A model generated the notes under the pieces. It was not told where the DNA came from, made no database searches, and was given only the letters and a program-made list of their open reading frames with translations. The translations under genes were made by a program, and so were the position numbers. Below, piece by piece: positions 38,708-59,357 of a DNA stretch of 64,000 nucleotides. This DNA is from a virus, in IMG/VR virus record IMGVR_UViG_3300025000_001646, positions 1-64,000 of that record; one strand, given 5' to 3'. Every line of letters begins with the position of its first letter. The first letter of the stretch is position 1.

Positions 38708-38723
38708 TTAATTTCACAAAGCA

Positions 38724-39350: not shown

Positions 39351-39628
39351 TGGGAAGAAATACAGTTAGATATATTGACAAAAAAACCGCAGAAGAAGTA
39401 TTGGAAAGAGATAGATATTGTTGTGCTTTATGTAGAAGCAACTTCAAATTGGAAATCCATCATATACATTATGGCATAAATGCTGAATATGTCAAGGAAA
39501 GAAATAATTCTGATAGACTAATAACATTATGCGGTAATTGTCATTATTCAATACATAACACTAAAGGAGGTCAAGGGATAAGAGAGGCTTGTATTAAGTA
39601 TATAAACGAAATTTATGATATAATATAA
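39350..39628 (+). CDS. HNH endonuclease
   Basis: ERDRYCCALC...LEIHHI...LITLCGNCH. Confidence 0.85.
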   Translation: MGRNTVRYIDKKTAEEVLERDRYCCALCRSNFKLEIHHIHYGINAEYVKERNNSDRLITLCGNCHYSIHNTKGGQGIREACIKYINEIYDII

Positions 39629-39675
39629 CTTATAAGATAAAAACAAAAATAGTTTATCACTAATATTATTGATTT

Positions 39676-40080
39676 ATGATTTTTGAATTACTTGTTAGCC
39701 TGATAATTAGTAGACCAATAGAAATAGATTTTAAACATTACTTAGAACCTCACAAACAAGTGCAAGTAAAACAAACATTTGGTGAATGTGTAGCCTTTGT
39801 TAAGAAAAAACTTGGTATAAAAGAACATCTCGGTGTTCAATACGCTAAGCAAATAGTAAATTTACCACAGTTTAAAAAAATAACAGACCCTAGGGGAGGA
39901 GACATCGTAGTCGCCCCTAAAATATCAAAGACTGGACATGTTTCTTACATCTTATACAACGAAAATGGTCGTTTAAGAATACAAGATTCTAATCTATTCG
40001 GAGATAAAGTTGTGAGGGAATACTGGCTAGATTCTTATTTCAAGAGTAGTCAGGTAGTTTTCTTGCGTTATAATATTTAA
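39676..40080 (+). CDS. CHAP-domain protein (cell-wall hydrolase-like)
   Basis: GECVAFV...GDIVV...GHVSYI...DSN. Confidence 0.65.
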   Translation: MIFELLVSLIISRPIEIDFKHYLEPHKQVQVKQTFGECVAFVKKKLGIKEHLGVQYAKQIVNLPQFKKITDPRGGDIVVAPKISKTGHVSYILYNENGRLRIQDSNLFGDKVVREYWLDSYFKSSQVVFLRYNI

Positions 40081-40235
40081 CCTTAATTTTTATGTCATAC
40101 ATAACACCTCCACCTTTGATGGTGGAAAAGAAGAAAGAGAAGTTAAAAGATAAGATTATTACTCATCTAGGATACTTTTTTCTTTTCTTGCTAACTTTTT
40201 GTTTTATAGTAGATTTTTTTAACCTTAAATAAATT

Positions 40236-40643
40236 ATGAGAGAAATAAAGTTTAGAGGAATGAATTATGAGACAAATGAATGGGTATATGGTGGTTATTA
40301 TAAAGGAACTAGAGTAAACGAGGAAAATGTTAATATAACCACAAAATTATCTGATTGTTATGTAGCAGAAAATATAATATTTGATGGATTAATATATTAT
40401 ATACAAAATGGAGAAACAATAGGTCAATATACAGGATTTAAAGACAAGAATGGAGTAGAAATTTACGAAGGCGATATTATAAAAATGAATTCAAAAGGAA
40501 TAAATTTTATAGGATATATAGAATATAATAACGGAAGATATATTGTTAGAAGAAGATCAATGCTGGATGGTTTTTATGATTTACATATTCAAAATTTAGA
40601 ATTAATAGGTAATATATACGAATATAAAGAACTTATTAATTAA
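40236..40643 (+). CDS. YopX family protein
   Basis: MREIKFRG...GQYTGFKDKNGVEIYEGDI...IGNIYE. Confidence 0.9.
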   Translation: MREIKFRGMNYETNEWVYGGYYKGTRVNEENVNITTKLSDCYVAENIIFDGLIYYIQNGETIGQYTGFKDKNGVEIYEGDIIKMNSKGINFIGYIEYNNGRYIVRRRSMLDGFYDLHIQNLELIGNIYEYKELIN

Positions 40644-40655
40644 CATTTATAATAT

Positions 40656-42223
40656 ATGGACACTAATATAGGAGACTGCGAAATATGCAGAAAAGAGCCA
40701 GAACTTAGCGAATATATATATAAAAAATGTTTTTTTGAAACAGATAATCCTAGAAAAGCACAGGAACATTTTAGTCAAACAGGACATAATGTTAAACACT
40801 TTATTAAAGTAGTAAAAACCTGGAAAAAAGATATTTTATTTCATAAATATATTTGCCAATGAATTTATATCAAAAACTAGACTATTCACAACCAATACAA
40901 AGCGTAGAGATAAAATCATCTCATTCTTGTATATTTCCAGTATGGAGACTGATAGTCAATAAACAAGAACTTGATTTTTGGGACAGAAAAACAGAGCATA
41001 GAGATGGACTTACTAAAGAAGAATTGAAAGAAAAACTTATTAATTTATATCCTAAACTTTCAAAACATTTATGCCACCAGATATCTTAATTGATGATACG
41101 ACTATTGATAAAATAAATATAAAACAAGATACCGATTATACCACTACAGGAGGAATTTTAATACAATAAAATCCTATAATAGATATTTTTGCGGATACAT
41201 TTTGTGATAATGATATTGCGGAAATAAGTAAGCAAAAAGCAGAAAAATTAAGAAATTTAATATATCCTATAATTTAATATAACTATGTATTATATTTCAG
41301 AAACAGCACCAATAGGAAGCTATGTTTGTATTAGAGAAGACGGAGGAGAACTTATTTGGTGGCAAATAAGAGATAAACAAGGAGAAAGCTTTCTTATTAA
41401 ATACCAAGATTTTACTAGAGTAATACCAATCGGTAGCGAAATAGTATCTTGGAGAAAACATAAAATTTAACCTTACCTAACAATGAATAAAGAAGAATTG
41501 GAAGATATTGTAATGTTGAGAATTATTGAAGATGCAGAATTTTTTAATAGCAAGATTATAATATCTGCAGAAAAGTTAAGAAATTATTTTAAAGAATATA
41601 TTGATATAATAATTAAAAATGTAATAATTGACTTGGATTGTGATTATAAACAATTAAAAGATTTTGATAAATATAAAAGTAATGAATATTTAAATGGATT
41701 TACGGATGGAGAATGTTGTTATGATAAAAAACTCAAACAAAAAGCTAAAGAACTTTATAATATAACATTATAAAACATTATGGGAGATGATACTTATATT
41801 GAAGTACCAATCAAATGGCTCGAACGATTATCAGAATATTCTAAAAAAGCTAATAAAGAATTTGAAGAAGAAGATATAATATTTCAAGTTGGAGTAGTAC
41901 AATTGATAGGATATTCTAGTTCAGTTGATAGCATTATAAAATATGAAAAACATATTACTAAATAACCTTATCTAACAATGGATAAAAAAGAAATGATAAA
42001 AATGATTAGTGAATACTTTGACGAATGTAATTTATCAGCACATAAAGAAATTGAAAAATTTATTTTTGAAACTATAATCCCAGAAGTATTAAATAGTGTG
42101 ATGCCAGAAATAGAAGAACATATTTGTAGATTCAATGATGGTGAATGTAAGTGTGAATGCTTCGTTAAGTTTGAAGAATGTATCAAACAAAAATCTAAAG
42201 AACTTTATAATATAACCTTATAA
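40656..42223 (+). other. Run of small hypothetical early genes, including two partial paralogs (41483-41773, 41978-42223)
   Basis: ORF track; the two paralogs share the C-terminus KQK(A/S)KELYNITL. Confidence 0.65.
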
Positions 42224-42227
42224 ACTT

Positions 42228-43328
42228 ATGATTACACTTTGTGATTTAAACAAATCACTGATTAAAAAAGCTAAAAAACTGAAAGGAGAAATAGAATTTA
42301 AAGCAGTATGTGGAGATATATTTGAATATCAAAAAAAGAATGGTGGACTGATAGCAACTGCCTCTAATCCTAGTTTCAATATGGGAGGAGGATTAGATGG
42401 AAAGATCGCAAAAAGATTTCCAGAAGAAGTAAAACAAGCTAAAGAGTTTATGTATACTGATAATTTATTCTTTACTGTTACGGTTGACAATGAATTAAAA
42501 TCTTCAAGAGAAATAATAAAAAGAGCATTAGCAGGATGTTATGCTTATAGAAGCATAAACATTATTATTAGTGGATTCGGTACAGGTATAGGAGGATTAG
42601 ATGAAGATATTTTTATAGAAGAATTAGAATGTATTATTAATGCTGACTTGAGACATGCTAACTTGGGAGGTGCTGACTTGGGAGGTGCTAACTTGGGATA
42701 TGCTGACTTGGGAGGTGCTAACTTGAGAGGTGCTAACTTGGGAGGTGCTAACTTGAGAGGTGCTAACTTGAGAGGTGCTAACTTGGGAGGTGCTAACTTG
42801 AGAGGTGCTGACTTGAGAGGTGCTGACTTGGTAGGTGCTAACTTGGGAGGTGCTAACTTGAGAGGTGCTGACTTGAGACATGCTAACTTGGGAGGTGCTG
42901 ACTTGAGAGGTGCTGACTTGGGAGGTGCTAACTTGGGAGGTGCTAACTTGAGAGGTGCTGACTTGAGAGGTGCTGAAACAGATAACGTTATAGTTGACGA
43001 AAGAACTTGTTTCTTTTCATTACAATGTCCAGAAGAAGGTAGTTTTATAGGTTGGAAAAAGTGTAGAGATGGTAAAATAGTAAAACTACTAATCACAGAA
43101 AAAGCTAAAAGAAGTAGTGCTACTACTAGAAAATGTAGAGCATCTGAGGTTGTAGTTTTAGAAATAGATGGTAAAAAGACAGGAATAGCAGTATCTCTTC
43201 AAGATGAGAAGTTTATTTATAAAGTAGGAAAAACTATTAAAATAAAAGACTTTGACGAAGATAGATGGAATGAGTGTTCGTCAGGTATACACTTCTTTAT
43301 CACCAAAAAAGAATCTATTAATTATTAA
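42228..43328 (+). CDS. Macro-like domain + pentapeptide repeats + DUF5758-like domain
   Basis: GDI...[14 protein letters not shown]...GFGTGIGG (macro domain); A(N/D)L(R/G)G repeats; [12 protein letters not shown]...KCRAS...CSSGIHFF. Confidence 0.85.
42641..42975 (+). repeat. 15-nt tandem repeat encoding pentapeptide repeats
   Basis: GCT(A/G)ACTTG(A/G)GAGGT, about 22 copies. Confidence 0.95.
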
Positions 43329-43342
43329 CCTTATAAAACATT

Positions 43343-43843
43343 ATGCAAGAATTAGATCAAATTAAAAAAGCCTTTGATACTTTTATTTCACAGGCAGAAA
43401 CCTTTGTTGAGAAACAGAAAGTCAAGGAAGAATATAAAAGATGGAGAGGGAAGGAAGGAGAAGAGTATTTTTGTATAGATGACAATGGAGATATTTATGA
43501 CGATAATGATTTTAATAATAAAGAAGATAATTTTAGATACAACACTGGTAACTACTTCCAAACAGAAAAAGAAGCAGAACAATACCGTGATAGACTACTG
43601 GCTACTACTAAAGTAAATGATAGGATAGATGAACTGAACGAAGATTGGAAGCCTGATTGGAATACTTATGAACAATGCAAATATTTAATCGTATATTCTA
43701 TATAAAATGGTGTTTTTGTTTATGATTATACTTTTAGGATTAAAAATGATTTGAAATTAAATTATATGAAATCGTAAGAAGTAGCATACCGAATCATCAA
43801 AGAACTAGAACCAGAATTAAAAATAATTTTTAATATTGTTTAG
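43343..43843 (+). pseudogene. Phage protein interrupted by two in-frame TAA codons
   Basis: The frame continues past TAA 43703 and TAA 43775 with plausible sequence (YMKS*EVAYRIIKELEPELKIIF) to TAG 43841, abutting the next gene. Confidence 0.55.
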
Positions 43844-43845
43844 AT

Positions 43846-46345
43846 ATGACTGAAAAATTAAAAGACAAAATATTTACAGTATCAATGATATTATTAATTG
43901 TATTTCTATTTTCTTTATTGATATTTATTTGGTCTGGACAAGAATGTAAAATGGTATTAATTAAAGGAAAAATAGAATCAGTTTATTATCAACCATCATC
44001 TTTCAGAACAGGAGAAAGTTGGAGCGGATTACTTAGAAAAGATGATGGAACTTTAGAAGAATTCTACAGTAATAAAATAGTACAACCTGGTATGAATTTT
44101 GAATACGATAAAGAAGTTTGTATTTATTAACATATGAGCGACAAACTTTTTAGTCAATCATATTTAATAAAATATGAGAGACAAAATATTACTTAACATT
44201 AATTAACTTATGGTAAATAAATTGACTAAAAGAGAAAGAGAATTATTTGATTTATTACAAGAATTCCCATTAATTACTACCAAAGAATTACAAAATAAAA
44301 TGAAAGTAGGAAAGAGTTTTATTTCTCAATATATAGATAGACTTAAAAAGAAAGGATATATCTTGAACAATATGTCAATATCTAAAAAAATTAATAAAAC
44401 TAATTTAACAGAAATAATAAAGATAATAGAAAAGAATAATAGGAAATTAATCAGAGAATTACAATCATTATCATTTAACTTTATTTAACTTATGAGAAAA
44501 CCAGTACAAAAAAATAACTGGATGTTATTAGTAACATTAGCTACCATAGTTATCCTATGTGTATTCATGTTAGTCAGGAGTGGAGTAGCCTTATCCAAAA
44601 TTAAGATGTTTCAAGAAGAGCAAAAGAAGGCAGAACAGATTAAGAACTTGAGTAATGAGAAGATCAGTTATCTTACAGAGATCAAAGATTTAATCGAAGA
44701 GAAGAAAGTGATACAAGAGAAACTATCGGCAGTAGAGAAGCGTATTGAGACACACGATAAGAAGATCAAGGAATTGGAGACCAAGATCAATACGATCATC
44801 GGAATACCTACTCAAGTAGATCAGGTATCAAAAATCTAGTGCTATCGTCGAAAGACCTAGTCGGTAGCACAATTAAAAAGGAGGAGGCAACTGAAAAAAA
44901 ACCATACAAGATTGGAGCAAGCGATAAACAAAACGAATATTTGCATTATGCTTGGATGATAAGCAAGAACGAAGATTTTATTTACACATTGCTAGCCGAG
45001 AATGGACAAGTAAATCATGACAGAAAACATACAGTTTCTTATTGGAGGTGTCACTCTTGGAAAAATGGAGTAACTATAAAAGGAAAATGGTATGGAAATG
45101 TTATAGACAAATCTTATTGTCAATTACCAGAACCAAAAGGATATTGGAGATTAGGAAACGACTGGGGATTTTGTGGTACATCTGATTCATATCAACCTAT
45201 AGTAAGATACGATGATAGATTTATGAAAGATCCTGGTTGGCAACTAGATCAGTGTTGGAATTTCTTTAGAAACGGAACTAGAATTTATGGTAAAGATAAG
45301 ATAAATGAAACAAAGAATCAAGTGGTATGGAAATAATATTTAACCTTATTTAATTTATGACAAAAAAAATAACATTATCAGAAATATTTTTCTGTACAAT
45401 GTTCATATTAATTTTAGTTTTTAGTGGATATTCTGCTATAAAACTATCAAAACAAAAAACTGTTTGTAATTATGACTATTCTACAAAAGATTATAAAAAT
45501 AACTATGAAAGAAGAATAGGAAAAATAAACAAAGTAAATAATGGAACAGTTGAAGTTATTCTTATGGATAGTTCTCTTCAAAGATTCTATACACCATATT
45601 ACTGGACAAAAGAAGATGATAATTATATTAAAAAATTTGAAGGAAAACTAGTTGAATTTTCTTATATAAGATTGGGAGATTTTAATTTTGAAATATCTCA
45701 AATAGAAGAAGTCATTATTTAACCTTATTTAATTATGAAAACTCAAGAAATTATTACAGCTATTGCCACCCTAGCTATAGTTACTTTCGTTGGTGGTGTG
45801 TGTGTTATTATAGCACTTATAGCTTGTGGATTATCAATAACATTTTACTAATAATATTTTATTTTTATGACTGATTTTGACCTTGTAGAACAAATCGTAG
45901 CAATTTTTTATGAATATTATAGTAAAAGCACTGAATTAGAAAGAAAAAAACAACTAAACAACGCTTACGACGAAGCAAGAGAAATATTGAAAGAATATAT
46001 AGAACAAGAAAAATATAAATGGGAACAAAAAAATTTTAAAAAATAACCTTATTTTATTTTATGGAAATCGAAACTGTAAAAAACAATGTTAAAAAAATAC
46101 TATCAAAATACAAAGAAACAAGAAATGATGATGGAAAATTACTAGATAATTACTATAATGAATATTTTATTAATTATTTTGATGAAAGAATTGAGAATTA
46201 TAATAACAAATGCTCAATTGAAACTATTATTAGAATGAGAAGATTTTGGCAATCGAGAGGGGAATATTTACCTACACTTAAAACAATAATGAGAAGAAGA
46301 AGGCTTGCCAATAAATTCAAACTTTATTTTAGAAAACTTAAATAG
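43846..46345 (+). other. Early/middle genes: membrane proteins (43846, 44492, 45357), wHTH protein (44210-44488), hypotheticals (44839-45336, 46061-46345)
   Basis: ORF track; TM helices; LTKRERELFDLL...SQYIDRLKKKGYI HTH. Confidence 0.65.
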
Positions 46346-46355
46346 ATTTTATGGC

Positions 46356-46410
46356 TTGAATTAGATTGAGTTATCTTAGATTATATTAATTTCTATTAAA
46401 TTACTTTTAT
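46356..46410 (+). repeat. 5-nt periodic array 1 (11 TT-NNN units)
   Basis: ttgaa ttaga ttgag ttatc ttaga ttata ttaat ttcta ttaaa ttact tttat. Confidence 0.8.
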
Positions 46411-46431
46411 TATTTTATTTTTATTTATTTT

Positions 46432-46974
46432 ATGAAATACAATTTTACTATTAAATTTACATCTCAATACTTACAGGCTAGATTTTCAGATGAAGCAAAG
46501 GAAGGTTTATTGGAAAATGCTAGAAAAACAGTTATTAAAGACGTAAAAGATGAAGATGAGATGTGGTTAAGATTTTCTTATTTTGACAAAAATGGTTATT
46601 ATATACCTGGAGAACAAATATATATGGCTTTAGTTTATTCTGGAAAAGATTTTAAAATGAAATCAAGCAGATGCAATATTTCAAATTATATTAAAGCAAA
46701 TCTTATTGTTAGCGAATTTAATTATTTAGGAAAGAAAAAACCAGATGAATTAATTGTTTCCTATGTAAAAAGAAAGGATGGTAGTAGAGTAAAGGTTATT
46801 CACCCATCTTTTAAACAAGGAACAGAATGTGATTTTGAAATTGATTTTATTGATGATTATCCAGAAAAAGAACTTAAACTACTTATAGAAAATGCAGGAA
46901 AAAGATGTGGAATAGGAGCAAGAAGACCAAGATTTGGAAGATTTGAAGTTACAAGTTTTAAAAAAGCAAAATAA
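46432..46974 (+). CDS. Stand-alone Cas7/RAMP-like protein
   Basis: N-terminal beta strand, YYIPGEQI (cf. RAMP iPgssik), C-terminal Gly loop CGIGARRPRFGRFEV; 180 aa; no other cas genes in the window. Confidence 0.7.
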   Translation: MKYNFTIKFTSQYLQARFSDEAKEGLLENARKTVIKDVKDEDEMWLRFSYFDKNGYYIPGEQIYMALVYSGKDFKMKSSRCNISNYIKANLIVSEFNYLGKKKPDELIVSYVKRKDGSRVKVIHPSFKQGTECDFEIDFIDDYPEKELKLLIENAGKRCGIGARRPRFGRFEVTSFKKAK

Positions 46975-46975
46975 A

Positions 46976-47153
46976 TTGGTTTACATTTGATTAAATTAGA
47001 TTAAATTCCCTTAAATTAAATTTAGTTGAATTTACACTAGCTAGATTATGTCTAGCTAGATGTGAGTTTGACTCACTAATTTATTGGATTAAATTTAATT
47101 ATATTTCGTTAGATTGATTTTGATTATTTTATATTAAATTAAATTAAATTTGT
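46976..47153 (+). repeat. 5-nt periodic arrays 2 (12 units, 46976-47035) and 3 (14 units, 47084-47153) separated by two hairpins
   Basis: ttggt ttaca tttga ttaaa ttaga ttaaa ttccc ttaaa ttaaa tttag ttgaa tttac; hairpins CTAGCTAGA/TCTAGCTAG and GTGAGT/ACTCAC; ttgga ttaaa tttaa ttata tttcg ttaga ttgat tttga ttatt ttata ttaaa ttaaa ttaaa tttgt. Confidence 0.85.
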
Positions 47154-47206
47154 ATTTTTTTATAAAAAAGGTATATAATATTAATAGACAATAACTTTTA
47201 AAAAAT

Positions 47207-47398
47207 ATGAAAATCAAAGTAAAGAATAAATTTCGTTCTTGATATATACCTATTCACGCTTGACAGACTTTTGATAATGTTAGAGAAAATAAATGAAAAT
47301 ATTTTATTAATACAAAATATTATGATTCAAATTATAAAGATTATAAAGAAAAAACAATTACCTATCTAAAAGAGGAAATTATAATATTAGAGGATTAG
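47207..47398 (+). CDS. Small hypothetical protein with three TGA=Gly codons inside the early region
   Basis: MKIKVKNKFRS(TGA)YIPIHA(TGA)QTFDNVRENK(TGA)KYF...; candidate promoter TTGTAT-18 bp-TATAAT at 47150-47179. Confidence 0.55.
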
Positions 47399-47457
47399 GT
47401 TTCAGACTTGGAAAGCCCAAATTTACATATATTATAAATTTTAACTTTCACTATTTT

Positions 47458-47688
47458 ATGAAAGGACTAAAAGAGGAAATTTTACAACTTAAGAAGGAGA
47501 AAAATTCATTGTTGAAAGACAACAAGAATTTGACTAAGATTAATGATGGACTTCTTGAAGAAAACGAAAAATTAGCTAATATTGGAGCAGACTTGTATAA
47601 GAAGTATAAGAAGGTTTGCTCACAGATAGCAACTATGTTAAACGAAAAAAGATGGGGTAAAAAAGTTGCTGTAAAAAAGAAGAAATAA
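47458..47688 (+). CDS. Coiled-coil hypothetical protein
   Basis: ORF track. Confidence 0.6.
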   Translation: MKGLKEEILQLKKEKNSLLKDNKNLTKINDGLLEENEKLANIGADLYKKYKKVCSQIATMLNEKRWGKKVAVKKKK

Positions 47689-47725
47689 AATTATTAGACT
47701 GGTTTAAACGAACCAGTCTATTTAT

Positions 47726-47791
47726 GTCGCCTACTCGAGCGTATTATTTAATTAATAATATGAGTCTGGAAAAACCAGACGGGCGACTCCA
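47726..47791 (+). ncRNA. tRNA-like element lacking a normal D arm
   Basis: Acceptor GTCGCCT/GGGCGAC + T-CCA; 5-bp/7-nt arm GTCTG-GAAAAAC-CAGAC; central AT-rich hairpin. Confidence 0.45.
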
Positions 47792-47792
47792 A

Positions 47793-47859
47793 CGAGAAGT
47801 AGTTTAAGGAAAACATTAGCTACAAGCTAATAATCTAGGGTCGATACCTAGCTTCTCGA
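47793..47859 (+). tRNA. Degenerate tRNA-like gene, apparent anticodon ACA
   Basis: CGAGAAG/CTTCTCG acceptor, GTTT/AAAC D stem, ATTAG-CTACAAG-CTAAT anticodon arm, CTAGG-GTCGATA-CCTAG T arm. Confidence 0.55.
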
Positions 47860-47885
47860 AAAAATCTTAATTAAAGGAGTTTAAC

Positions 47886-48692
47886 ATGAAGGAAAACAAG
47901 AAATTAGAATTAGTAAAGCAATTTTCTGAAAAAGAATTGGCTACTATTATTCAAAAACAAACTCAGAGAATAGAATCAGTTTACCAGCCAAAAGCTACTA
48001 AGAAGAAATTTAAGGTTGCTATTGTGTCTGATACACATCTAGGATCAAAAGTTTGTAAACTTGAATATCTCAATGATGCTTATGACATAATTGAGAAAGA
48101 ACATATTAAGACGGTGTTACACGGAGGAGATAATTTTGACGGAAATGGATTTGTGTATAAGGGGCATATCTATGAATTGTCTATCATAGGTTTTGACAAT
48201 CAGTTAAAATTTGGAGTAGAAAATTACCCAAAAAGAAAAGGTGTTAAAACTTATATGATTGCAGGAAACCATTGCTGTAGCTGGAAAGACGCAGATATTG
48301 TTCAAGCCTTTGCAAAAGAAAGAAGCGATATTGTTTATTTAGGTCAGTATTTGGCAGATGTAGTATTGAATGGTGTTAAATTTAGATTAATTCATCCCAT
48401 CAAATCTTCGGCATATGCTTTGACATATTTTTGCCAGAAGGAACTCGAAGCTATACCAAGTGGAGAAAAACCACAAGTATATATTCGAGCGCATAGTCAC
48501 ACTGCCTATTCTTTCTTCTACAGAAACATCTATGCTTTCGGAGCAGGTTCATTTCAAGGAGCTACAGATCTTACTAATAGACTTGGTATTAATGTAGTCA
48601 ATGGTTTCTGGATATTAGATATTGAAGTCAATGATGATGAATTGAACTCAATCAAGACTTTATCTTCTAAATTTATCCCGTATTACAATTAA
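47886..48692 (+). CDS. Calcineurin-like metallophosphoesterase
   Basis: SDTHLGS, HGGDNFDG, AGNH, AHSH. Confidence 0.85.
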   Translation: MKENKKLELVKQFSEKELATIIQKQTQRIESVYQPKATKKKFKVAIVSDTHLGSKVCKLEYLNDAYDIIEKEHIKTVLHGGDNFDGNGFVYKGHIYELSIIGFDNQLKFGVENYPKRKGVKTYMIAGNHCCSWKDADIVQAFAKERSDIVYLGQYLADVVLNGVKFRLIHPIKSSAYALTYFCQKELEAIPSGEKPQVYIRAHSHTAYSFFYRNIYAFGAGSFQGATDLTNRLGINVVNGFWILDIEVNDDELNSIKTLSSKFIPYYN

Positions 48693-48701
48693 GGAGGTAA
48701 T

Positions 48702-49973
48702 ATGAAATTAATTATCGAATGTTCATGTTGTGGAAAAGAAGTTACAATTAATGTGCAAGGCAGTGAGAGCATGAGAGAGATGACAGAGAAAGCCATATTT
48801 TGTCACTGTAAAATTAGAAAAATTAAGGAGGCAAGGAAATAAAATTATTTTAAAAAATGAATAAAAACTAGAATAATAATTCTAGCAATTGTAATCAAGG
48901 AGGAAAAAAATGAAAAAAATTTTATTATTGATTGTATTGTTTTTAACAATTAGCTGTTTAAGTACTTCCGTTGTTAATATTACAATGGATGGGAAAATGG
49001 TATATTTTTCTTCAAATAAGCCAGAATGGATTAACAAAGAAGGAATTATAAAAGAAACAAAAGATTTTAAACTTATTTGTTATAAAGATTCTGGTGATAC
49101 TGTTGAAGAAGCAATTCTTAAAATACAGGAAAGAATAAAAGAAAAAGGTTATATTTACAATGTTATTGTTTTATATAACAAAAAATATACTGTTTATATG
49201 TTATTTATTGAATTAAAAGGGAGGTTAATATGAAAAAGGTTTATGTTTGTTCTCCTTATCGAAGTAATATTGAACTTAATACAAAAAGAGCTAAACAATA
49301 TGGAAGAGCTATAATATTTGAAGGAAAAATACCAGTAATACCACATTTACTTTATACACAATTTTTAGATGATGAAAAAGACATTGAAAGAATAATTGGA
49401 CTTAATATAGCTATTCATCTTATGCTTGAATGTGATGAGATTTATGTTTTTTCTGAAAATAATTACATTTCTGATGGAATGAAAGAAGAAATAAAAGTAT
49501 GGTTTAAGGAGAAAAATATAAAACCAATTACAATTCTTCCATATAACTGGGGGGAAAAATATGGATAAATAAAATTAAAATTATTTTATGGAGGTGATGA
49601 TATGGATTCAAAAATAGATTATAATTCTTTTTTTAGCACTTATATCAGAATGCAAGCAGAGCTTTACAACCATATTAAATTTTTCGATGGTAATACTCTT
49701 ATAACAAGACATTTGGCAATAACTGGAATGTTTGCAGAAGTTTACTCTTGGTTAGCAGAAACTGGAATAGGTCAAGCTTGCTATATTATTATAGAACTTG
49801 CCAAAGATAAAGAATTTGTAAAAATGATTGACGAAGAAAAATGGAAAATTTCGGAAAAAGAAAACCACGATATTTACCCCAACGAAATGGATAAACTTTC
49901 TAAGCCAATAAAAGAATATGTAAAAATAAAATATAAAAAATATTTCAAAGATAAAAAATCTATTGAAATATAA
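48702..49973 (+). other. Genes with Shine-Dalgarno sites: small Cys protein, putative lipoprotein (48910-49233), DUF4406/DUF7768-like protein (49230-49568), hypothetical (49602-49973)
   Basis: GGAGG upstream of each; LTISC lipobox-like motif; KKVYVCSPYR...PHLLYTQFLDD...ECDEIYV. Confidence 0.7.
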
Positions 49974-49976
49974 TTA

Positions 49977-50006
49977 AAGGTCAATCTATCAAGATTGGCT
50001 TTTTTT
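49977..50006 (+). terminator. Intrinsic terminator
   Basis: AAGGTCAATCT-atca-AGATTGGCTT followed by T run. Confidence 0.65.
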
Positions 50007-50129
50007 ATACACAAAAACCCCCAAATGGAGGTTCCTGTGCTATTTTATGAAAAACACTAAAAAATTATAATCTATATAAAATTAAAAGTAAAATTTTATA
50101 AAAAAATAACAAGAAAATAACAAAAAAAC

Positions 50130-50158
50130 TTGATTTTTATAAAAAAAAAGAGTATAAT
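50130..50158 (+). promoter_or_regulatory. Strong early promoter P6
   Basis: TTGATT-17 bp-TATAAT. Confidence 0.8.
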
Positions 50159-50189
50159 TAAAATATATTATTTAATTTAAACTATTTTT

Positions 50190-50801
50190 ATGGAAAACAA
50201 TTATTATGAGAATCTATCAAAAGTAGATGTCTCTGGATTGCTTGAAAAGAAAAGCAATCTTTCTTATCTTTCTTGGGCCCATGCAATAGATCAAGTTCTT
50301 AAGAGGTATCCAGACATGATTTATGAGATTATTAAGTATGACGGAAAACCATATTATATGGATGAGACAGGAGCAATGGTTTATACTAAAGTTACTATCG
50401 AAGGAGTAACTAGAGAAATGTGGCTTCCTGTTATGGACGGAGCTAATAAGACAATGAAAAAAGAAGCCTATACATATAAGACTAAATTTGGTGATAAACA
50501 AGTAGAGGCAATCTCAATGTTTGACGTAAATAAGACAATAATGAGATGTTTAGTTAAAAACTTAGCAATGTTTGGTCTAGGAATAAGTGTTTATGCTGGG
50601 GAAGATTTACCACTTATAGACGAGACAGAAAAAACCATTGAAGAAAAAGCAATAAATACTTTTGGAAAACCATTTGATATAATGGTACAAGAACAAAATA
50701 AAGAATTACACGGAAAATGCCCAAAATGTGGGGCTTCTATGATTAAGAGTAAAACAACAGGAAACGTATTTTGTCAAGATAGGTGTTGGTCGAAAAAATA
50801 A
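50190..50801 (+). CDS. Sak3/DUF1071 single-strand annealing protein with C-terminal zinc finger
   Basis: LSYLSWA...EMWLPVMD...NKTIMRCLVKNLAMFGLGISVYAGEDLP. Confidence 0.9.
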   Translation: MENNYYENLSKVDVSGLLEKKSNLSYLSWAHAIDQVLKRYPDMIYEIIKYDGKPYYMDETGAMVYTKVTIEGVTREMWLPVMDGANKTMKKEAYTYKTKFGDKQVEAISMFDVNKTIMRCLVKNLAMFGLGISVYAGEDLPLIDETEKTIEEKAINTFGKPFDIMVQEQNKELHGKCPKCGASMIKSKTTGNVFCQDRCWSKK

Positions 50802-50812
50802 TCTTACTTTTT

Positions 50813-51361
50813 ATGAATAAAATTTCTCGTGATTTTTATGTCAAAAGGGGAGAAAGAGAAATGCTTTATCAGTTTACTACCAACTCAGACATTTTTAATT
50901 GTAAAAAACCAATCTATAAAATGTTAAAAGAAATATTTATAAAAGGTATTCCAGAAGAAGTAATAGGATATCAATCTATAAGTGAAGGAGAATTATTGAA
51001 TATTAACAAGGAAAGAGAAGAGAAAGGATTTATTTGTCTAGCTGACAATTATGAAAATAGAGGTAATAAACAACACGAATTTGTGCAGAATAACTTTATA
51101 GAACAAGACGACTACTTATTAGGAATAGAAGTGCCAGTATGGTCTCATAAACTTAAAATTTTTGGACATATAGACATTTTAAGATTAGTAGATAATAAAA
51201 TACAGATACTTGATTTCAAGCCTAAAGCACACCAAGAAAAAAAAGCTCCTAGTCAAGTATTCAGATATGGAGTTTGCATTGCTGAAATGATTGGTTGTAG
51301 TATTAAAGATTTAGAAATGTATTATTTTGATGATAAAAACTGTTTTAAAATTTTACTTTAA
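50813..51361 (+). CDS. PD-(D/E)XK nuclease
   Basis: EVPVW...GHIDIL...ILDFKP...QVFRY; probable ATG at 50813. Confidence 0.8.
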   Translation: MNKISRDFYVKRGEREMLYQFTTNSDIFNCKKPIYKMLKEIFIKGIPEEVIGYQSISEGELLNINKEREEKGFICLADNYENRGNKQHEFVQNNFIEQDDYLLGIEVPVWSHKLKIFGHIDILRLVDNKIQILDFKPKAHQEKKAPSQVFRYGVCIAEMIGCSIKDLEMYYFDDKNCFKILL

Positions 51362-51369
51362 CTTATTTT

Positions 51370-51726
51370 ATGAATAATCTTGAAGAATTAATTGATTTAT
51401 GTGGATAGAATTTCAAGATGAATTTATTAATATAAGTAAGTTTTCTTGTATATTTAAAAAAGAAAAAACTTAATGAATTTTTCGATGAATTTATTATTTA
51501 CCATTATTGGAACAGAAAATTAGAAGAAAAATTAGAAAAAAAACAAAAAATGACTAAAGAAGAAATACAAAAAATGAAAGACCCTATTTTATTTGGAATG
51601 ATTAAAGAATCTAATAGACTTTATTTTATAGATGATTGGGAAGATGAATATTGTGATTTAACTTTTGATGAAATAATAGATGTAATTGGAGAAAATAAAC
51701 TTACTAAAAATATTAACCTTAATTAA
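51370..51726 (+). pseudogene. Frameshifted or truncated remnant of a phage gene
   Basis: ATG 51370 hits TAG after 12 codons; a coherent C-terminus KDPILFGMIKESNRLYFIDDWEDEYCDLTFDE lies in another frame. Confidence 0.45.
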
Positions 51727-51728
51727 TT

Positions 51729-52774
51729 ATGGAACATATTAAACCATTTTATACTGGAATGACTAAAGATGGGGCTATAACTTGTTTAAGAAACAAGTTA
51801 TATATAATGCAGCTTAATAATGGAAATAGTTTTGAAAATTATGATTTATTTAAAGTTTCTACTCAAGTTGCTATTGATATTGTTACTAAATATATTCCTT
51901 ATGAAGAAAATTGTGATAAAACAGAAAAATTAAAAAATGGTAATGGAGGAAATGGTGCGTATAATATGAAAGAAGAAATAGAAAATCTAAAAAAAGAAAT
52001 TAAAGAAATAAAAAGAATGAAATTATTAGAACTTGAAGCACAAATAGAAGCTAAAAAAAATTGGGGAGAACATACAGAGGAATACTGGAAAAAATTTAAC
52101 AATTAACATTATTTTATTTTATGTTAGAACAGATTAACACTACTAATCTTGAGTTACAAATTAAAGATACTCAAGAAAAATCAAACAATATATTGATAAC
52201 TAATGAAGAACAATTATTACAAGCTACTGACTTTTTAGGCAATGTAAAAAAACTCTATAAGAATGCAGAGGAGGAAAGAAAAGAAATTACAAAACCTCTC
52301 AACGATTCTTTAAAGGCTATTAATAAAAAATACAAAATAATTACAGAACCATTATTGGCTCTTGAAAGTAAGCTAAAAACACTTATTACAGCTTATTTAA
52401 AGAATAAAGATGAGCAAGACAGAAAAATAGTTGAAGAAGAAAGAAAATTACTGGAAGCAAAAAGGATAGAACTTGAAGAACAAGAAAAAAACGCTAACAA
52501 AGAAGAGCTAGCACTCATAGAAACGCAAAAAAACAGCCTAGAACAGCAGGAAATACTAAATATGGTAGATAATAAGCTAAACAATCAAATACGTACAGAA
52601 AACACTTTAATTAGCAAAAAGAAGGTATGGAAATTCGATGTTGTAGATATTTATAAAATTCCAAATAAATATTTGATTTTAGATGAAAAAAAAGTTGCAG
52701 AAGATATTAGAAATGGTATAATAGAGATTGAAGGATTAAAGATATATCAAGAAGAAATAATAGCAGTTAGATAG
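51729..52774 (+). other. Two hypothetical genes (51729-52106; 52121-52774, coiled-coil, recombination-module type)
   Basis: ERKEITKPL...WKFDVVD...IEGLKIYQE. Confidence 0.65.
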
Positions 52775-57898: not shown

Positions 57899-58336
57899 AT
57901 GATTAACGGTGTAAAAATTATTGACGTTAATAGATTCTGGGATGACAGATGATTTTTTGCAGAGGTATGGAGGAAGTCTCAACAATGAGAAATGGCTCAA
58001 ATGTCTTTCACTAAAACTTACCCTTGAGTTGTCAAGGCTTTTCACTACCACGAAAAACAAGATGATTTATGGTTTTGTGTAGAAGGAAATCTAAGAGTAG
58101 TTTTAAAAGACCTTAGAGAAGACTCTCCTACTTTTAATGAAGTGCAAACTATTTATATTGGTGAAAAATCTCAAGCAGTTTATATTCCTAAAATGGTAGC
58201 TCACGGTTATAAAGTTATGGGAGAAAAGCCAGCTAAACTTATTTATTTGACAACACAAGAATATGATGTAAAAAATCCAGACGAGAAAAGAATACCTTAT
58301 GACGAATTTTATGATTGGAAAACAGTTTTTAAGTAA
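57899..58336 (+). CDS. rmlC: dTDP-4-dehydrorhamnose 3,5-epimerase; TGA=Gly
   Basis: DDR(TGA)FFAE, P(TGA)VVKAFHYH, DLREDSPTF, IPKMVAHGY. Confidence 0.88.
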
Positions 58337-58344: not shown

Positions 58345-58373
58345 TTGTTTTTATAAATTACTATTGGTAGAAT
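58345..58373 (+). promoter_or_regulatory. Promoter of the tRNA gene
   Basis: TTGTTT-17 bp-TAGAAT with TG extension, 12 nt upstream of the tRNA. Confidence 0.55.
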
Positions 58374-58385: not shown

Positions 58386-58460
58386 GCGGGGATGAGGTAA
58401 AGTCTAGCCTGAATCGCTTCAACCGATTAAGTAGGGGATAGTCTCCCCTTCTCCGCTCCA
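58386..58460 (+). tRNA. tRNA-Gly(UCA), TGA-decoding
   Basis: Full cloverleaf: GCGGGGA/TCTCCGC, AGGT/GCCT, AATCG-CT TCA AC-CGATT, 4-nt variable loop, AGGGG/CCCCT, U73, encoded CCA; anticodon 58419-58421. Confidence 0.88.
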
Positions 58461-58475
58461 ATAATTTTTATTTTT

Positions 58476-59357
58476 ATGGGATCATCAAAGCACGGATTAA
58501 AGCCAAATCAAATATCAGTAAAAAGAAAAAGCACTAAAGTAAAAGGTGTTTCTCGTTTAAATCATTGGTCTACTATTTCAAAAATGAATATTGAAGATAA
58601 GAAAGTAAATGGTTATGTAACTAATATAACTAATATAAAAGGAAATACATTTTGGTGGTATTCTAAAGGAAGAAAAACTTGTTTAGACACAGGACTTAAA
58701 TGTGATCCAGATGGTTATAATAGATGGAATACTTATGAAAATCACCTAATAAGAAAAAAGAGATTTAAAAATCGTGTCAGAAAAAATACTATTTAATTTT
58801 ATATTTTTATGGCTCAACACATTGGAATGATATTGGAAGATGAAGATGGAAAATTAATTAAAGACTCTAAATTAAATTTTCAAGATGTTTTAGATAAATG
58901 TGATGTTAGTGATAATGAATGGTTAGGCACAATAGATGAATATGGAAATACTGTATTTAATAATATTCAAATACCTATAATAATTAATGAATTAAAAGAA
59001 TTACCAGTAGAAGAAGAAAATTATACATTAATTAATAAATTTATAAAATTTTTAGAGCAAGCAGAGGATCACGAATATATAAAATTTATTGGAGATTAAC
59101 TTTTAATTTATATGATTATAGAAATACCAGATATAAAAGACCGTAATGGAAAAACAGTAAGAATGGGAGATGTTATATATTTTCCAGAACAAAGTCTTCA
59201 CAATACATTGGTTAGATGGGATGAGGAAGAATTTTGTTTAGTACCTTTTAATTATAAATATTATTATTATAAAGACCAAGAAACTGGAAAAATGTGTCCT
59301 TTTGAAATAGTAGGAAATATAAAAGAAGAACCAAATTTACAATATGGAAGAGATTAA
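58476..59357 (+). other. Three small TGA-free genes (58476-58796, 58809-59099, YopX-like 59112-59357)
   Basis: ORF track; KDRNGKTVRMGDVI...EIVGNI in the third. Confidence 0.65.

What the first reader, a model, noticed from the sequence alone, without database searches (positions are those of the whole stretch)
58386..58460. Phage-encoded tRNA-Gly with anticodon UCA and non-canonical D/T loops
Seen: a 75-nt cloverleaf with anticodon TCA, G1-C72/C2-G71/G3-C70, U73, encoded CCA and a candidate promoter of its own. Known: these are the bacterial GlyRS identity elements; the short variable loop and 7-bp acceptor stem exclude tRNA-Sec, and U73 argues against tRNA-Trp. The D loop (AAAGTCTA, no GG) and T loop (ATAGTCT instead of TTCRANY, with A54/T58 inverted) are aberrant, so standard scanners may miss it. 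Inference: this is the decoder for the recoded genes, and its remodelled elbow might evade host tRNA nucleases or alter its processing.
Basis: partly seen in the sequence, partly recalled or inferred. Interest (0 to 1): 0.92.

Follow-up and report, generated by a model that had tools for sequence, protein, structure and literature searches.

The report
Phage glycine tRNA that reads TGA
An uncultured groundwater phage carries a real transfer RNA that most likely reads the stop codon TGA as glycine for its late genes, and the corner of this tRNA is rebuilt from matched base swaps.

Summary
ARAGORN calls a 75-nt cloverleaf with anticodon UCA at 58386-58460. None appeared in 2000 shuffles of the 75-mer, and none with that anticodon in 100 block-shuffled genomes. 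A covariance model built from 18 canonical Gly-type tRNA(UCA) genes scores it 45.2 bits. Rfam misses it even at E<=10.

TGA means glycine here. It aligns with Gly at 11 of 16 sites in the best solved-structure matches, never with Trp, and sits on two TerL glycines invariant in 27 of 27 homologues.

Recoding is partitioned. 54 of 64 non-early ORFs carry TGA (459 TGA against 858 GGN). The 24-kb replication block has 325 GGN and essentially no in-frame TGA, and uses TGA as a stop in ATGA overlaps.

The "aberrant" loops read as compensated swaps: G18-U55 kept, G19-C56 to U19-A56, U54-A58 to A54-U58.

No relative carries this tRNA, so covariation could not be tested. The host's genetic code is unresolved: I put a TGA=stop host at about 60%.

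Code-25 phages and phage suppressor tRNAs are in print. This scan had already noted odd-elbow suppressor tRNAs and UGA-to-Gly cassettes on other DNA.

The parts
58386..58460 (+). tRNA gene, anticodon UCA (58419-58421), Gly-type acceptor stem, U73, encoded CCA
   Evidence: ARAGORN; custom covariance model 45.2 bits; cloverleaf is the MFE fold; shuffles
58399..58406 (+). D loop AAAGTCTA, read as A14 A15 A16 G18 U19 C20 U20a A21: G18 kept, G19 replaced by U
   Evidence: ARAGORN brackets; alignment to model R1 puts G on G18 and U on G19
58438..58444 (+). T loop ATAGTCT = A54 U55 A56 G57 U58 C59 U60: U55 and G57 kept, 54/58 swapped, C56 replaced by A
58345..58373 (+). weak candidate promoter: TTGTTT, 17 nt, TGgTAGAAT, ending 12 nt before the tRNA
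   Evidence: read by eye; NOT reported by the promoter scan
58465..58475 (+). T-rich tract (TTTTTATTTTT) directly after the CCA end; possible end of the transcript
   Evidence: sequence; no terminator called by the scan
57899..58336 (+). upstream neighbour: rmlC-like dTDP-sugar epimerase with 3 in-frame TGA, last gene of the recoded phosphonate/sugar operon
58476..58796 (+). downstream neighbour: 106-aa ORF without TGA, no known family
22288..23226 (+). dTDP-glucose 4,6-dehydratase with 10 in-frame TGA; 7 of 10 align with Gly in the best PDB match, including GxxGxxG, STDEVYG and YGP
19363..20445 (+). CDP-tyvelose-epimerase-like gene with 6 in-frame TGA; 4 of 6 align with Gly in the best PDB match
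28608..52774 (+). early block (DnaB-like helicase, Sak annealing protein, exonuclease, methyltransferase): 325 GGN codons. The only 6 TGA 'in frame' lie in 4 small or read-through ORFs
30411..30414 (+). ATGA overlap: TGA ends ORF 30037-30414 while ATG starts the methyltransferase gene
49230..49233 (+). ATGA overlap: TGA ends ORF 48910-49233 while ATG, 8 nt after GGAGG, starts the next gene

Best explanation
The locus is a working phage tRNA-Gly with anticodon UCA. It is the adapter that lets ribosomes read the roughly 460 in-frame UGA codons of the phage's structural, lysis, chaperonin and glycan/phosphonate genes as glycine.

How it most likely works:
(1) It is transcribed from the 139-bp gap after the rmlC-like gene and matured with its encoded CCA (inferred).
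(2) The host GlyRS charges it through G1-C72, C2-G71, G3-C70, purine 4/pyrimidine 69, U73 and C35. The phage has no GlyRS gene. A36 in place of the determinant C36 should lower efficiency (inferred from published determinants).
(3) U34-C35-A36 pairs with UGA.
(4) The L-shape is held by an elbow in which both partners of two tertiary pairs were changed together: U19-A56 for G19-C56, and A54-U58 for U54-A58. G18-U55 and the rest of the core are kept (shown in sequence, structure inferred).
(5) The replication and recombination genes hold no in-frame TGA and some end in TGA. I therefore read the tRNA as the switch from the host's code (TGA = stop) to the phage's late code (TGA = Gly). This is the Borges-type model with glycine in place of tryptophan.

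Odds: a real tRNA that decodes UGA as Gly, about 0.85. That the host itself reads TGA as stop, about 0.6 given the first point.
For: The tRNA is real: ARAGORN, cloverleaf MFE, 0 of 2000 shuffles, 45.2 bits with model R1, a 53% G+C island. It is the only tRNA with a stop anticodon in the 84,486-bp record.

TGA = Gly:
- 11 of 16 TGA sites of two enzymes align with Gly in the best PDB match and 0 with Trp.
- In TerL, TGA lies on G33 and G300, which are Gly in 27 of 27 homologues. Pooled over all TerL TGA sites, homologues show Gly 40%, against 43% at GGN sites.
- In an internal 351-nt repeat, the partner codon of TGA is GGT in 4 of 9 pairs and never TGG.
- Reading TGA as Trp would give 3.6% Trp in late genes against 1.0% in early genes. 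One 245-aa late ORF has 16 TGA and no GGN.

Identity: G1-C72, C2-G71, U73, C35 and R4/Y69 are the published eubacterial GlyRS determinants (PMC10464925, passages read).

Partition:
- 54 of 64 non-early + strand ORFs carry TGA (459 TGA against 858 GGN). The early block has 325 GGN, and its 6 'in-frame' TGA sit in 4 small or read-through ORFs.
- Codon usage is otherwise alike (r = 0.958, GC3 0.19 against 0.18), so the early block is not a foreign import.
- (GGA+TGA)/all Gly is 62% in late genes, against GGA at 65% in early genes.
- TGA stops in ATGA overlaps lie at 30412, 49231 and 62874.
- 58 of 106 ORFs (55%) are recoded. The Borges preprint gives 26-71% for phages on standard-code hosts and about 90% for code-25 phages.

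Origin:
- The 80 IMG/VR TerL relatives kept (33-42% identity) are not TGA-recoded around TerL and hold no tRNA(tca).
- The tRNA body is unlike the tRNA(UCA) of two TGA-recoded bacteria and four recoded phage contigs (best 50 of 72 positions).
Against: No expression, charging or proteome data exist for this phage.

There is a single sequence and no relative with this tRNA, so no covariation test of stems or elbow was possible.

A36 replaces the determinant C36, and a C36A change strongly lowered glycylation by a standard alpha2-beta2 GlyRS. Rfam's general tRNA model does not score the gene.

Against a TGA=stop host:
- Up to 35 TGA occur in one gene, with no release factor or recognisable RF2 countermeasure in the phage.
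- The base after in-frame TGA matches the background, so there is no sign of avoiding strong termination contexts.
- The sample is groundwater.
- The nearest named GroEL relatives are CPR bacteria, including Gracilibacteria, some of which read TGA as Gly.

The promoter is not supported.
Confidence: 0.6

Rival explanations
1. Same tRNA-Gly(UCA), but the host is a code-25 CPR bacterium (Gracilibacteria or Absconditabacteria) that already reads UGA as Gly and has no RF2. The phage copy only tops up supply for very TGA-rich late genes. It is a codon-usage helper, not a code switch.
For: The source is groundwater, a CPR-rich habitat (own knowledge). The best named GroEL hits at 45-49% identity are 8 Peregrinibacteria, 4 Gracilibacteria and 6 other Patescibacteria out of 23 named rows. 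Genes with up to 35 TGA are easy to translate without RF2. There is no RF gene or context bias. Code-25 phages are published and assumed to infect code-25 hosts. TGA-recoded IMG/VR contigs with Gly-type tRNA(UCA) exist (L182, L183, L185, L186), and one carries a tRNA nearly the same as a bacterial one.
Against: It does not explain why 325 Gly codons of the early block include essentially no TGA while 35% of late Gly codons are TGA, given otherwise equal codon usage. It also does not explain early genes ending in TGA inside ATGA overlaps, with the next in-frame stop 27-39 codons away. Only 55% of ORFs are recoded, against about 90% reported for such phages. The tRNA body is unlike the code-25 examples found. 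BLAST of the tRNA against 401 genomes of that class gave only chance matches, none in a tRNA. The GroEL tree does not place the phage (branch length 2.57). The nearest non-self PEP mutase is from Bacillus at 47%.
Confidence: 0.28
2. The tRNA is charged wholly or partly with another amino acid. Cys is the most plausible, because U73, C35 and A36 are CysRS determinants (own knowledge). Trp is the other option, as in code-4 phages. UGA would then be read ambiguously.
For: The anticodon UCA is one change from GCA (Cys) and from UCC (Gly). U73 is shared by tRNA-Cys and tRNA-Gly (own knowledge). A36 weakens GlyRS recognition. Public gene calls of this phage translate TGA as Trp, but that is only a pipeline default.
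Against: TGA sits on invariant glycines: GxxGxxG, STDEVYG, YGP, DQGW, and TerL G33 and G300. Trp appears at only 3 of 216 homologue cells at TerL TGA sites. The 1-72, 2-71 and 3-70 pairs are the Gly set, and the bacterial Trp discriminator G73 (own knowledge) is absent.
Confidence: 0.05
3. The gene is a decayed or non-decoding tRNA-like element, such as a relic, an attachment-site remnant or a processing signal. Something else would read UGA: a host tRNA or an undetected phage RNA.
For: Near-universal G19, U54, C56 and A58 are all absent. Rfam does not score the gene. The fold z-score is only -1.75. Conservation cannot be shown because there is no relative.
Against: All four stems are intact. 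The anticodon matches the recoded codon exactly. U8, A14, A21, U33, A37, G18, U55, G57, G53-C61, CCA and the full Gly acceptor set are kept. The four 'lost' bases form two still-complementary pairs. It is full length, not a 3' fragment. The same single swaps occur in other predicted tRNAs. No other decoder is found in the record.
Confidence: 0.07

Closest known systems
Suppressor tRNAs of alternatively coded phages (TAG=Gln, code 15; TGA=Trp, code 4): crAss-like, Lak, Jade, Agate and others (Borges et al., bioRxiv 10.1101/2021.08.26.457843; passages read)
   Same: A phage-borne tRNA with a stop anticodon. The genome has low G+C. Structural and lysis genes are recoded while the DNA-replication genes stay in standard code. 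The share of recoded genes (55%) lies in their 26-71% range. The authors expected non-canonical suppressor tRNAs that escape detection.
   Different: The amino acid is Gly. That paper states that only TAG-to-Gln and TGA-to-Trp are seen in phages whose code differs from the host's. No RF1 or synthetase module lies beside the tRNA. The habitat is groundwater, not gut. The host code was not determined here.
tRNA-Gly(UCA) of code-25 bacteria (SR1/Absconditabacteria and BD1-5 Gracilibacteria; Campbell et al. 2013 PNAS, recalled and seen only as a reference) and the code-25 phages presumed to infect them
   Same: Anticodon UCA, G1-C72/C2-G71/U73, and UGA at glycine positions. Phage contigs with such tRNAs exist in IMG/VR.
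   Different: The two bacterial and four phage examples recovered here have canonical GG and TTCRA loops, but they were recovered with a pattern that required that T loop. They also share a body unlike this one (best 50 of 72). This phage leaves its early genes TGA-free and uses TGA stops there.
Glycine-inserting UGA suppressors derived from E. coli glyT tRNA-Gly(UCC) (Murgola and co-workers; recalled, not looked up)
   Same: A tRNA-Gly body with anticodon UCA works as an opal suppressor in a standard-code cell with the host GlyRS.
   Different: Those are laboratory mutants of a chromosomal gene, with low-level suppression and a canonical elbow.
Phage tRNAs whose loop changes escape host tRNA nucleases (PARIS/AriB, PMC11464382, and Retron-Eco7, PMC12673091: search listing only), and the T-loop nuclease CbCash (PMC13462974, passages read)
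   Same: A phage tRNA differs from the host consensus at positions a defence nuclease reads. CbCash targets the UUC motif and loses activity on U54 or U55 mutants. This tRNA has A54-U55-A56.
   Different: Nothing links this phage or its host to such a nuclease. The anticodon loop still holds U33-U34-C35, a motif CbCash can also cut. The published escapes concern anticodon loops.

Membership tests
Eubacterial tRNA-Gly (substrate of GlyRS) | G1-C72 and C2-G71 (plus G3-C70) | tested here: met
   Sequence and ARAGORN drawing; determinants as listed in PMC10464925
Eubacterial tRNA-Gly (substrate of GlyRS) | Discriminator U73 | tested here: met
   T at 58457
Eubacterial tRNA-Gly (substrate of GlyRS) | C35 and C36 in the anticodon | tested here: not met
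   C35 is present, but position 36 is A (anticodon UCA). A C36A change lowered glycylation by L. plantarum GlyRS. So this is not a canonical tRNA-Gly; the same departure defines the code-25 tRNA-Gly(UCA).
Eubacterial tRNA-Gly (substrate of GlyRS) | Purine 4 / pyrimidine 69 | tested here: met
   G4-C69; preference reported in PMC10464925
Eubacterial tRNA-Gly (substrate of GlyRS) | Is actually glycylated | not testable with these tools
   Needs an aminoacylation assay
tRNA-Gly(UCA) decoder of UGA=Gly (code 25 type) | Anticodon UCA on a Gly-type acceptor stem | tested here: met
   45.2 bits against model R1, built from 18 such tRNAs
tRNA-Gly(UCA) decoder of UGA=Gly (code 25 type) | In-frame UGA of the same genome falls on glycine positions | tested here: met
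   11 of 16 sites in the best PDB matches; TerL G33 and G300 in 27 of 27 homologues; internal repeat
tRNA-Gly(UCA) decoder of UGA=Gly (code 25 type) | Descent from the bacterial code-25 tRNA-Gly(UCA) lineage | tested here: inconclusive
   The best identity to any tRNA(UCA) recovered is 50 of 72. BLAST against 401 genomes of the class of a TGA-recoded MAG gave only non-tRNA chance hits. Only 2 bacterial code-25 examples were in hand.
Suppressor tRNA of an alternatively coded phage (code switch on a standard-code host) | Phage-encoded tRNA with a stop anticodon, plus in-frame stops in late genes | tested here: met
   Virus record with direct terminal repeats; portal, protease, tape measure and TerL genes recoded
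Suppressor tRNA of an alternatively coded phage (code switch on a standard-code host) | Early and replication genes compatible with the standard code | tested here: met
   TGA used as a stop at 30412 and 49231
Suppressor tRNA of an alternatively coded phage (code switch on a standard-code host) | The host reads the codon as stop | tested here: inconclusive
   No host was found: no CRISPR context at 5 short matches, the GroEL tree is unresolved, and the +4 context is neutral
tRNA-Sec | Long variable arm, 8+5 or 9+4 acceptor/T helices, G73 | tested here: not met
   4-nt variable loop, 7+5 helices, U73. ARAGORN's 'SeC' label follows from the anticodon alone. The Sec features are from own knowledge.
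tRNA-Trp(UCA) of code 4 | UGA at Trp positions; Trp-type acceptor with G73 | tested here: not met
   0 of 16 PDB-aligned sites and 3 of 216 TerL homologue cells are Trp; U73. The G73 rule is from own knowledge.
Rfam RF00005 (tRNA) | Score at or above the gathering threshold of 29 bits | tested here: not met
   No match at gathering score or at E<=10. The phage's other tRNA scores 49.1 bits.

The most novel reading that the evidence does not exclude
A third kind of phage-imposed code change. A phage of a host that reads TGA as stop would rewrite TGA to glycine for its late genes, using only one tRNA and the host's GlyRS. Until now only Gln at TAG and Trp at TGA have been reported for phages whose code differs from their host's. 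That tRNA's elbow would have been deliberately rebuilt (U19-A56, A54-U58, no UUC). It would keep its shape but no longer show the T-loop sequence that host nucleases or modification enzymes read.
Probability: 0.2. Interest if true: 0.85.

Novelty: new variant of a known kind. Interest (0 to 1): 0.6.

Why it matters
1. It supplies the missing part of a two-code phage genome: a plausible adapter for about 460 TGA=Gly codons.

2. If the host reads TGA as stop, GlyRS joins GlnRS and TrpRS as a synthetase that a phage can exploit for a code switch. Glycine-inserting opal suppression would then be a natural regulatory device.

3. Public protein collections hold this phage's proteins with Trp at every TGA. 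TGA=Gly phages are therefore probably hidden among 'code 4' phages, with every glycine motif mistranslated.

4. The tRNA is missed by Rfam. Borges et al. found suppressor tRNAs in only 35-40% of recoded phages and suspected non-canonical ones.

5. A natural tRNA with both 19-56 and 54-58 swapped is a ready test case. It can show how much of the 'universal' elbow sequence is needed for shape and how much for recognition by RNase P, TrmA/TruB, the ribosome and T-loop nucleases. It is also a possible orthogonal scaffold for engineered suppression.

Tried and rejected
Relatives of the tRNA, all without result:
- A pattern for the odd D, anticodon and T loops gave 11 hits in IMG/VR, none a tRNA by ARAGORN. 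A stricter form gave 0 hits in metagenome contigs.
- A pattern for a Gly-type acceptor, UCA and CCA with free loops gave 9 IMG/VR hits. 2 were already-known canonical tRNAs and 7 were not tRNAs.
- blastn against 50,697 GenBank phage records gave no match.

Relatives of the phage:
- Exact-peptide searches with TerL and the 106-aa neighbour found nothing. tblastn of TerL against GenBank phages found nothing.
- The best non-self TerL in 5.8 billion proteins is 43% identical.
- The 80 best of 224 IMG/VR TerL loci are neither recoded nor carry tRNA(tca) within the up to 10 kb fetched on each side. The tRNA lies 24 kb from TerL in this genome, so those flanks may simply not reach it.

Host:
- The GroEL exact-peptide scan of genome contigs found nothing.
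- The GroEL tree is uninformative; I used 22 of the 120 hits listed, which are 22 of the 23 rows carrying an organism name in the NCBI label (one row's label was cut off in the listing).
- A 20-kb BLAST (44001-64000 only, 20 of 84 kb) against 401 genomes gave AT-rich short matches. 5 were inspected and none lay in a repeat array.
- PEP mutase points to no CPR donor.
- The +4 context test was neutral.

Wasted or weak steps:
- One search was my mistake: the gap in the pattern was too long, so it missed even the known tRNA of G002 and returned only chance hits.
- (model R1 over 141 genomes) hit all tRNAs; only 2 of the 30 loci held a tRNA(tca).
- One search found only the query itself.
- So only two bacterial code-25 tRNA(UCA) genes were available for comparison. 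All canonical comparators were recovered with a pattern that demanded a canonical T loop, so they cannot show that odd elbows are absent elsewhere.

Sequencing runs: no RNA holder is listed. The contigs laid did not cover 58338-58504, and the two low-share runs hold only short identical pieces. Nothing can be said on expression or variants.

Considered and dropped:
- tRNA-Sec and tRNA-Trp (see the membership test).
- An attachment-site remnant: the gene is full length, and I saw no integrase in the partial annotation.
- A D-loop/T-loop kissing helix between the two AGUCU pentamers: possible on paper (4 of 5 antiparallel pairs), but the canonical-type reading explains the same letters.
- An RF2 inhibitor among the TGA-free small ORFs after the tRNA: no family hit and no usable Atlas hit.

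Not seen: supplementary files of papers were closed. Table S2 and the figure data of Borges et al., and the Zenodo tables of Liu et al., may list tRNA(UCA) genes of code-25 phages. Campbell et al. 2013 is not held and is cited from recall. My claim that TGA-to-Gly is not reported for phages on standard-code hosts rests on two searches and on the passages read.
Full report
WHAT IS THERE. The window is the first 64 kb of an 84,486-bp IMG/VR virus record with direct terminal repeats and 28.8% G+C. ARAGORN finds two tRNA genes in the whole record. One lies at 58386-58460 on the + strand: 75 nt with anticodon tca.
- a 7-bp acceptor stem beginning G1-C72, C2-G71, G3-C70, G4-C69;
- U73 and an encoded CCA;
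- a 4-bp D stem with loop AAAGTCTA;
- a 5-bp anticodon stem with loop CUUCAAC;
- a 4-nt variable loop;
- a 5-bp T stem with loop ATAGTCT.

The minimum-free-energy fold of the 75-mer is this cloverleaf, although the energy is only 1.75 SD better than shuffles.

IS IT CHANCE? ARAGORN found 1 tRNA, and none with tca, in 100 block-shuffled copies of the genome. It found none in 2000 shuffles of the 75-mer placed in its own flanks. The gene is a 53% G+C island in flanks of 25-27%. I built a covariance model from 18 other tRNA(UCA) genes with Gly-type acceptor stems, 8 from IMG/VR and 10 from GTDB genomes. It finds the gene end to end at 45.2 bits, rough E 2.5e-10. Rfam's general tRNA model reports nothing, either at its gathering score or at E<=10 on a 251-nt stretch. 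The same search gives the phage's other tRNA 49.1 bits. So the gene is real, and a standard Infernal/Rfam pass misses it. The promoter scan gave no site beside the gene. The TTGTTT-17-TGgTAGAAT that can be read by eye at 58345-58373 is weak evidence in so A+T-rich a genome.

WHAT TGA MEANS. Read with TGA as a sense codon, the fragmented regions close into long ORFs. They encode portal, prohead protease, tail fibre, tape measure, TerL, GroEL, an M23 lysis gene, glycosyltransferases, the dTDP-rhamnose enzymes and a phosphonate operon. I translated two enzymes with X at TGA and aligned them to solved structures.
- In the dTDP-glucose 4,6-dehydratase, 7 of 10 X face Gly in the best match. These include the first glycine motif GxxGxxG, STDEVYG, YGP and YG.G. 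The other three face Tyr, Lys and Asp.
- In the CDP-tyvelose-epimerase-like protein, 4 of 6 X face Gly (GGxGFxGS, HGDIR, DQGW). The other two face Arg and Leu.
- None faces Trp.

In an alignment of TerL with 27 homologues of 36-43% identity, two TGA sites lie on columns that are Gly in 27 of 27 sequences. A third is Gly in 18 of 19 filled cells. Pooled, TGA columns are 40% Gly, like the GGN columns (43%); Trp fills 3 of 216 cells. In a 351-nt internal repeat of the tail-fibre gene, the codon opposite a TGA is GGT in 4 of 9 pairs, TGA once, TCT twice, GCT once and CGA once. Composition agrees. Counting TGA as Trp would give late genes 3.6% Trp, against 1.0% in early genes. One 245-aa ORF has 16 TGA and no GGN at all. 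TGA therefore stands for glycine.

THE PARTITION. Of 64 + strand ORFs of 60 aa or more outside the block 28-53 kb, 54 hold in-frame TGA: 459 TGA against 858 GGN, so 35% of glycine codons. The 42 ORFs of the block 28608-52774 hold 325 GGN and 6 TGA in 4 ORFs. These ORFs include a DnaB-like helicase, a Sak annealing protein, an exonuclease, methyltransferases and a pentapeptide-repeat protein. On inspection, the 6 TGA are read-through tails behind a TGA stop or sit in one doubtful 63-aa ORF. The two gene sets otherwise use codons alike (r = 0.958 over 57 codons; GC3 0.19 and 0.18), so the early block is not a recent import. GGA+TGA makes up 62% of glycine codons in late genes, against 65% GGA in early genes, as if TGA had replaced GGA. 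Three TGA-free genes end in TGA inside an ATGA overlap with the next start codon: two of the early block (30412 and 49231) and one at 62874, in the TGA-free stretch downstream of the tRNA. For the two early-block genes, the next in-frame stop lies 39 and 27 codons away, inside the following gene. In all, 58 of 106 + strand ORFs (55%) are recoded.

WHO CHARGES IT, AND WHY GLYCINE. Passages of PMC10464925 list the eubacterial GlyRS determinants as G1-C72, C2-G71, C35, C36 and U73, with a preference for purine 4 and pyrimidine 69. The same passages report that a C36A change lowered glycylation and that a T-armless tRNA was not charged. The phage tRNA has every one of these except C36, which the anticodon UCA excludes. 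The same holds for the tRNA-Gly(UCA) of code-25 bacteria (Campbell et al. 2013, recalled). A long variable arm and G73 (Sec), or G73 with UGA at Trp sites (Trp), are absent. U73, C35 and A36 are also CysRS determinants (own knowledge). Some mischarging with Cys cannot be excluded from sequence, but the coding evidence leaves little room for it. The phage has no match to RF-1, tRNA-synt_2b or GlyQ domains in six frames. It must therefore use host GlyRS and host release factors.

THE ELBOW. In the alignment to model R1, the D loop reads A14 A15 A16 G18 U19 C20 U20a A21. The T loop reads A54 U55 A56 G57 U58 C59 U60. Measured against the textbook tertiary pairs (own knowledge: U8-A14, R15-Y48, G18-Psi55, G19-C56, T54-A58, G26-A44, G53-C61, purine 57), this tRNA keeps U8-A14, A15-U48, G18-U55, G26-A44, G57, A21 and G53-C61. 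It changes both members of two pairs: G19-C56 becomes U19-A56, and U54-A58 becomes A54-U58. So the four 'missing' universal bases form two pairs that stay complementary. This is what selection for an intact L-shape would leave and what decay would not. With one sequence it is an argument, not a test: by chance two pairs stay Watson-Crick about 1 time in 16.

- A54/T58: this tRNA, a tRNA-Lys of a high-GC phage contig, and a tRNA-Ser-like gene of a Gemmatimonadales MAG.
- A56: this tRNA and a phage tRNA-Cys whose D loop also lacks GG.

Each swap thus recurs, but rarely. Only this tRNA has both. The two loops also share the pentamer AGUCU, which I cannot explain.

WHY WOULD THE ELBOW CHANGE? This is inference only. 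The elbow and T loop are read by many proteins. A published defence nuclease, CbCash, cuts tRNAs in the T loop at the UUC motif and loses activity on U54 or U55 mutants (PMC13462974, passages). A54-U55-A56 lacks that motif, although the anticodon loop U33-U34-C35 still carries it. A54 also removes the m5U54 site. Earlier notes of this scan, which are AI notes on other DNA that I did not check, report odd-elbow opal suppressor tRNAs in crAss-like TGA=Trp phages. They also report recurrent A54/U58 and 19-56 swaps in phage tRNAs. My small count agrees with 'rare but recurrent'.

RELATIVES AND ORIGIN. I found no relative of the tRNA and no close relative of the phage. The best non-self TerL is 43% identical. 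The 80 IMG/VR TerL loci examined are standard-coded around TerL. TGA-recoded IMG/VR contigs with Gly-type tRNA(UCA) do exist (L182, L183, L185, L186). One of these tRNAs has nearly the same body as that of a TGA-recoded bacterial genome. The tRNA studied here matches the nearest of them at only 50 of 72 positions. It also has no BLAST relative in 401 genomes of that bacterial class. It therefore does not look like a recent capture from the code-25 tRNAs I could sample. That sample is small and was selected for canonical T loops.

THE HOST. The DNA comes from groundwater metagenomes. The phage GroEL has its best named matches (45-49%) among Peregrinibacteria, Gracilibacteria and other Patescibacteria, but the tree cannot place so long a branch. 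Its PEP mutase is nearest to Bacillus (47%).

For a host that reads TGA as stop:
- the all-or-none partition with equal codon usage;
- the TGA stops in ATGA overlaps;
- the 55% share of recoded genes, which lies in the range the Borges preprint gives for phages on standard-code hosts and well below its 90% for code-25 phages;
- the standard-coded relatives.

For a code-25 host:
- the habitat and the CPR-like GroEL;
- up to 35 TGA in one gene with no release-factor countermeasure;
- a neutral base after TGA.

I put the first at about 0.6.

WHAT IS KNOWN. Phage suppressor tRNAs and late-gene recoding are established for TAG=Gln and TGA=Trp. Code-25 phages are reported, with the hypothesis that they infect code-25 hosts. 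The same preprint states that only the Gln and Trp reassignments are seen where phage and host codes differ, and that non-canonical suppressor tRNAs probably escape detection. Liu et al. describe code-25 and code-11-compatible phages of Gracilibacteria and Absconditabacteria. The latter avoid TGA altogether, also as a stop. The present tRNA is therefore a new variant of a known kind. It is a Gly-type opal decoder with a doubly swapped elbow, in a phage that mixes TGA-free early genes (with TGA stops) and TGA=Gly late genes. The public protein collection holds this phage's TerL, GroEL and PEP mutase with Trp at every TGA, so its code was taken for code 4.

VERDICT. The reading as the glycine decoder of the recoded genes is well supported in silico (about 0.85). 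The code-switch role depends on the unresolved host (about 0.6). The nuclease-escape idea is untested. Interest 0.6.

Noticed in passing
window 47793-47859 (+): Second phage tRNA: 67 nt, anticodon ACA, A73, C1-G72, 5-nt D loop, T loop GTCGATA. Rfam scores it 49.1 bits. ACA is among the rarest anticodons in bacteria, 0.002% of tRNA genes according to PMC13092985. It lies in the TGA-free early block. If A34 were deaminated to inosine it could read UGU, UGC and UGA. Its identity and role are unknown.
   Followed up: partly
whole record; protein clusters P0001, P0121, P0241: The public protein collection holds this phage's TerL, GroEL and PEP mutase translated with Trp at every TGA: 8, 9 and 12 sites. 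The pipeline treated the phage as code 4, so every TGA-encoded glycine of these proteins is mistranslated in public data.
   Followed up: yes
window 58401-58405 and 58440-58444: The D loop and the T loop contain the same pentamer, AGTCT. Read antiparallel, the two copies could form 4 of 5 pairs. I have no explanation beyond the canonical-type elbow reading.
   Followed up: no
L104 596-666, L094 16-90, L095, L097, L100, L105, L114, L117 (GTDB genome contigs): Canonical tRNA genes with Gly-type acceptor stems and anticodon UCA occur in bacteria whose surrounding DNA is not TGA-recoded, for example a Streptococcus sp. and an Anaerolineaceae MAG. 10 of 33 pattern hits were tRNA(tca) by ARAGORN, and 8 of these 10 lie in standard-looking context. 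They may be natural glycine opal suppressors or parts of mobile elements.
   Followed up: partly
L182 5593-5667 (IMG/VR contig, 67 kb) and L213 1501-1575 (genome G169): A TGA-recoded phage contig carries a tRNA(UCA) whose D arm, anticodon arm and variable loop are identical, and whose T arm is nearly identical, to those of a TGA-recoded bacterial genome. This is a likely host-derived tRNA and a host link for that phage, in contrast with the tRNA studied here.
   Followed up: partly
window 53835-57889, 15908-28011; L013 12170-13771 (genome 76170-77771): The phage carries a phosphonate pathway (PEP mutase, split TPP decarboxylase, Fe-ADH, nucleotidyltransferase, TagF-like transferase). It also has a 12-kb glycosylation gene set with rmlA-D split over two places, and a full-length GroEL. 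All are TGA-recoded.
   Followed up: partly
window 58476-60113 and 61080-63883: Genes without TGA alternate with recoded ones (rmlD 60264-61079; 63885 onward) on one strand, just downstream of the tRNA. The TGA-free genes are four small ORFs of unknown family, a methyltransferase, a ClpP-like protease and a GT2. The small TGA-free ORFs next to the tRNA are the obvious place to look for accessory code-change factors; no family or Atlas hit was found.
   Followed up: partly
genome 79201-79938 (L013 15201-15938): A 245-aa glucosyltransferase-like ORF writes all 16 of its glycines as TGA and has no GGN codon.
   Followed up: no
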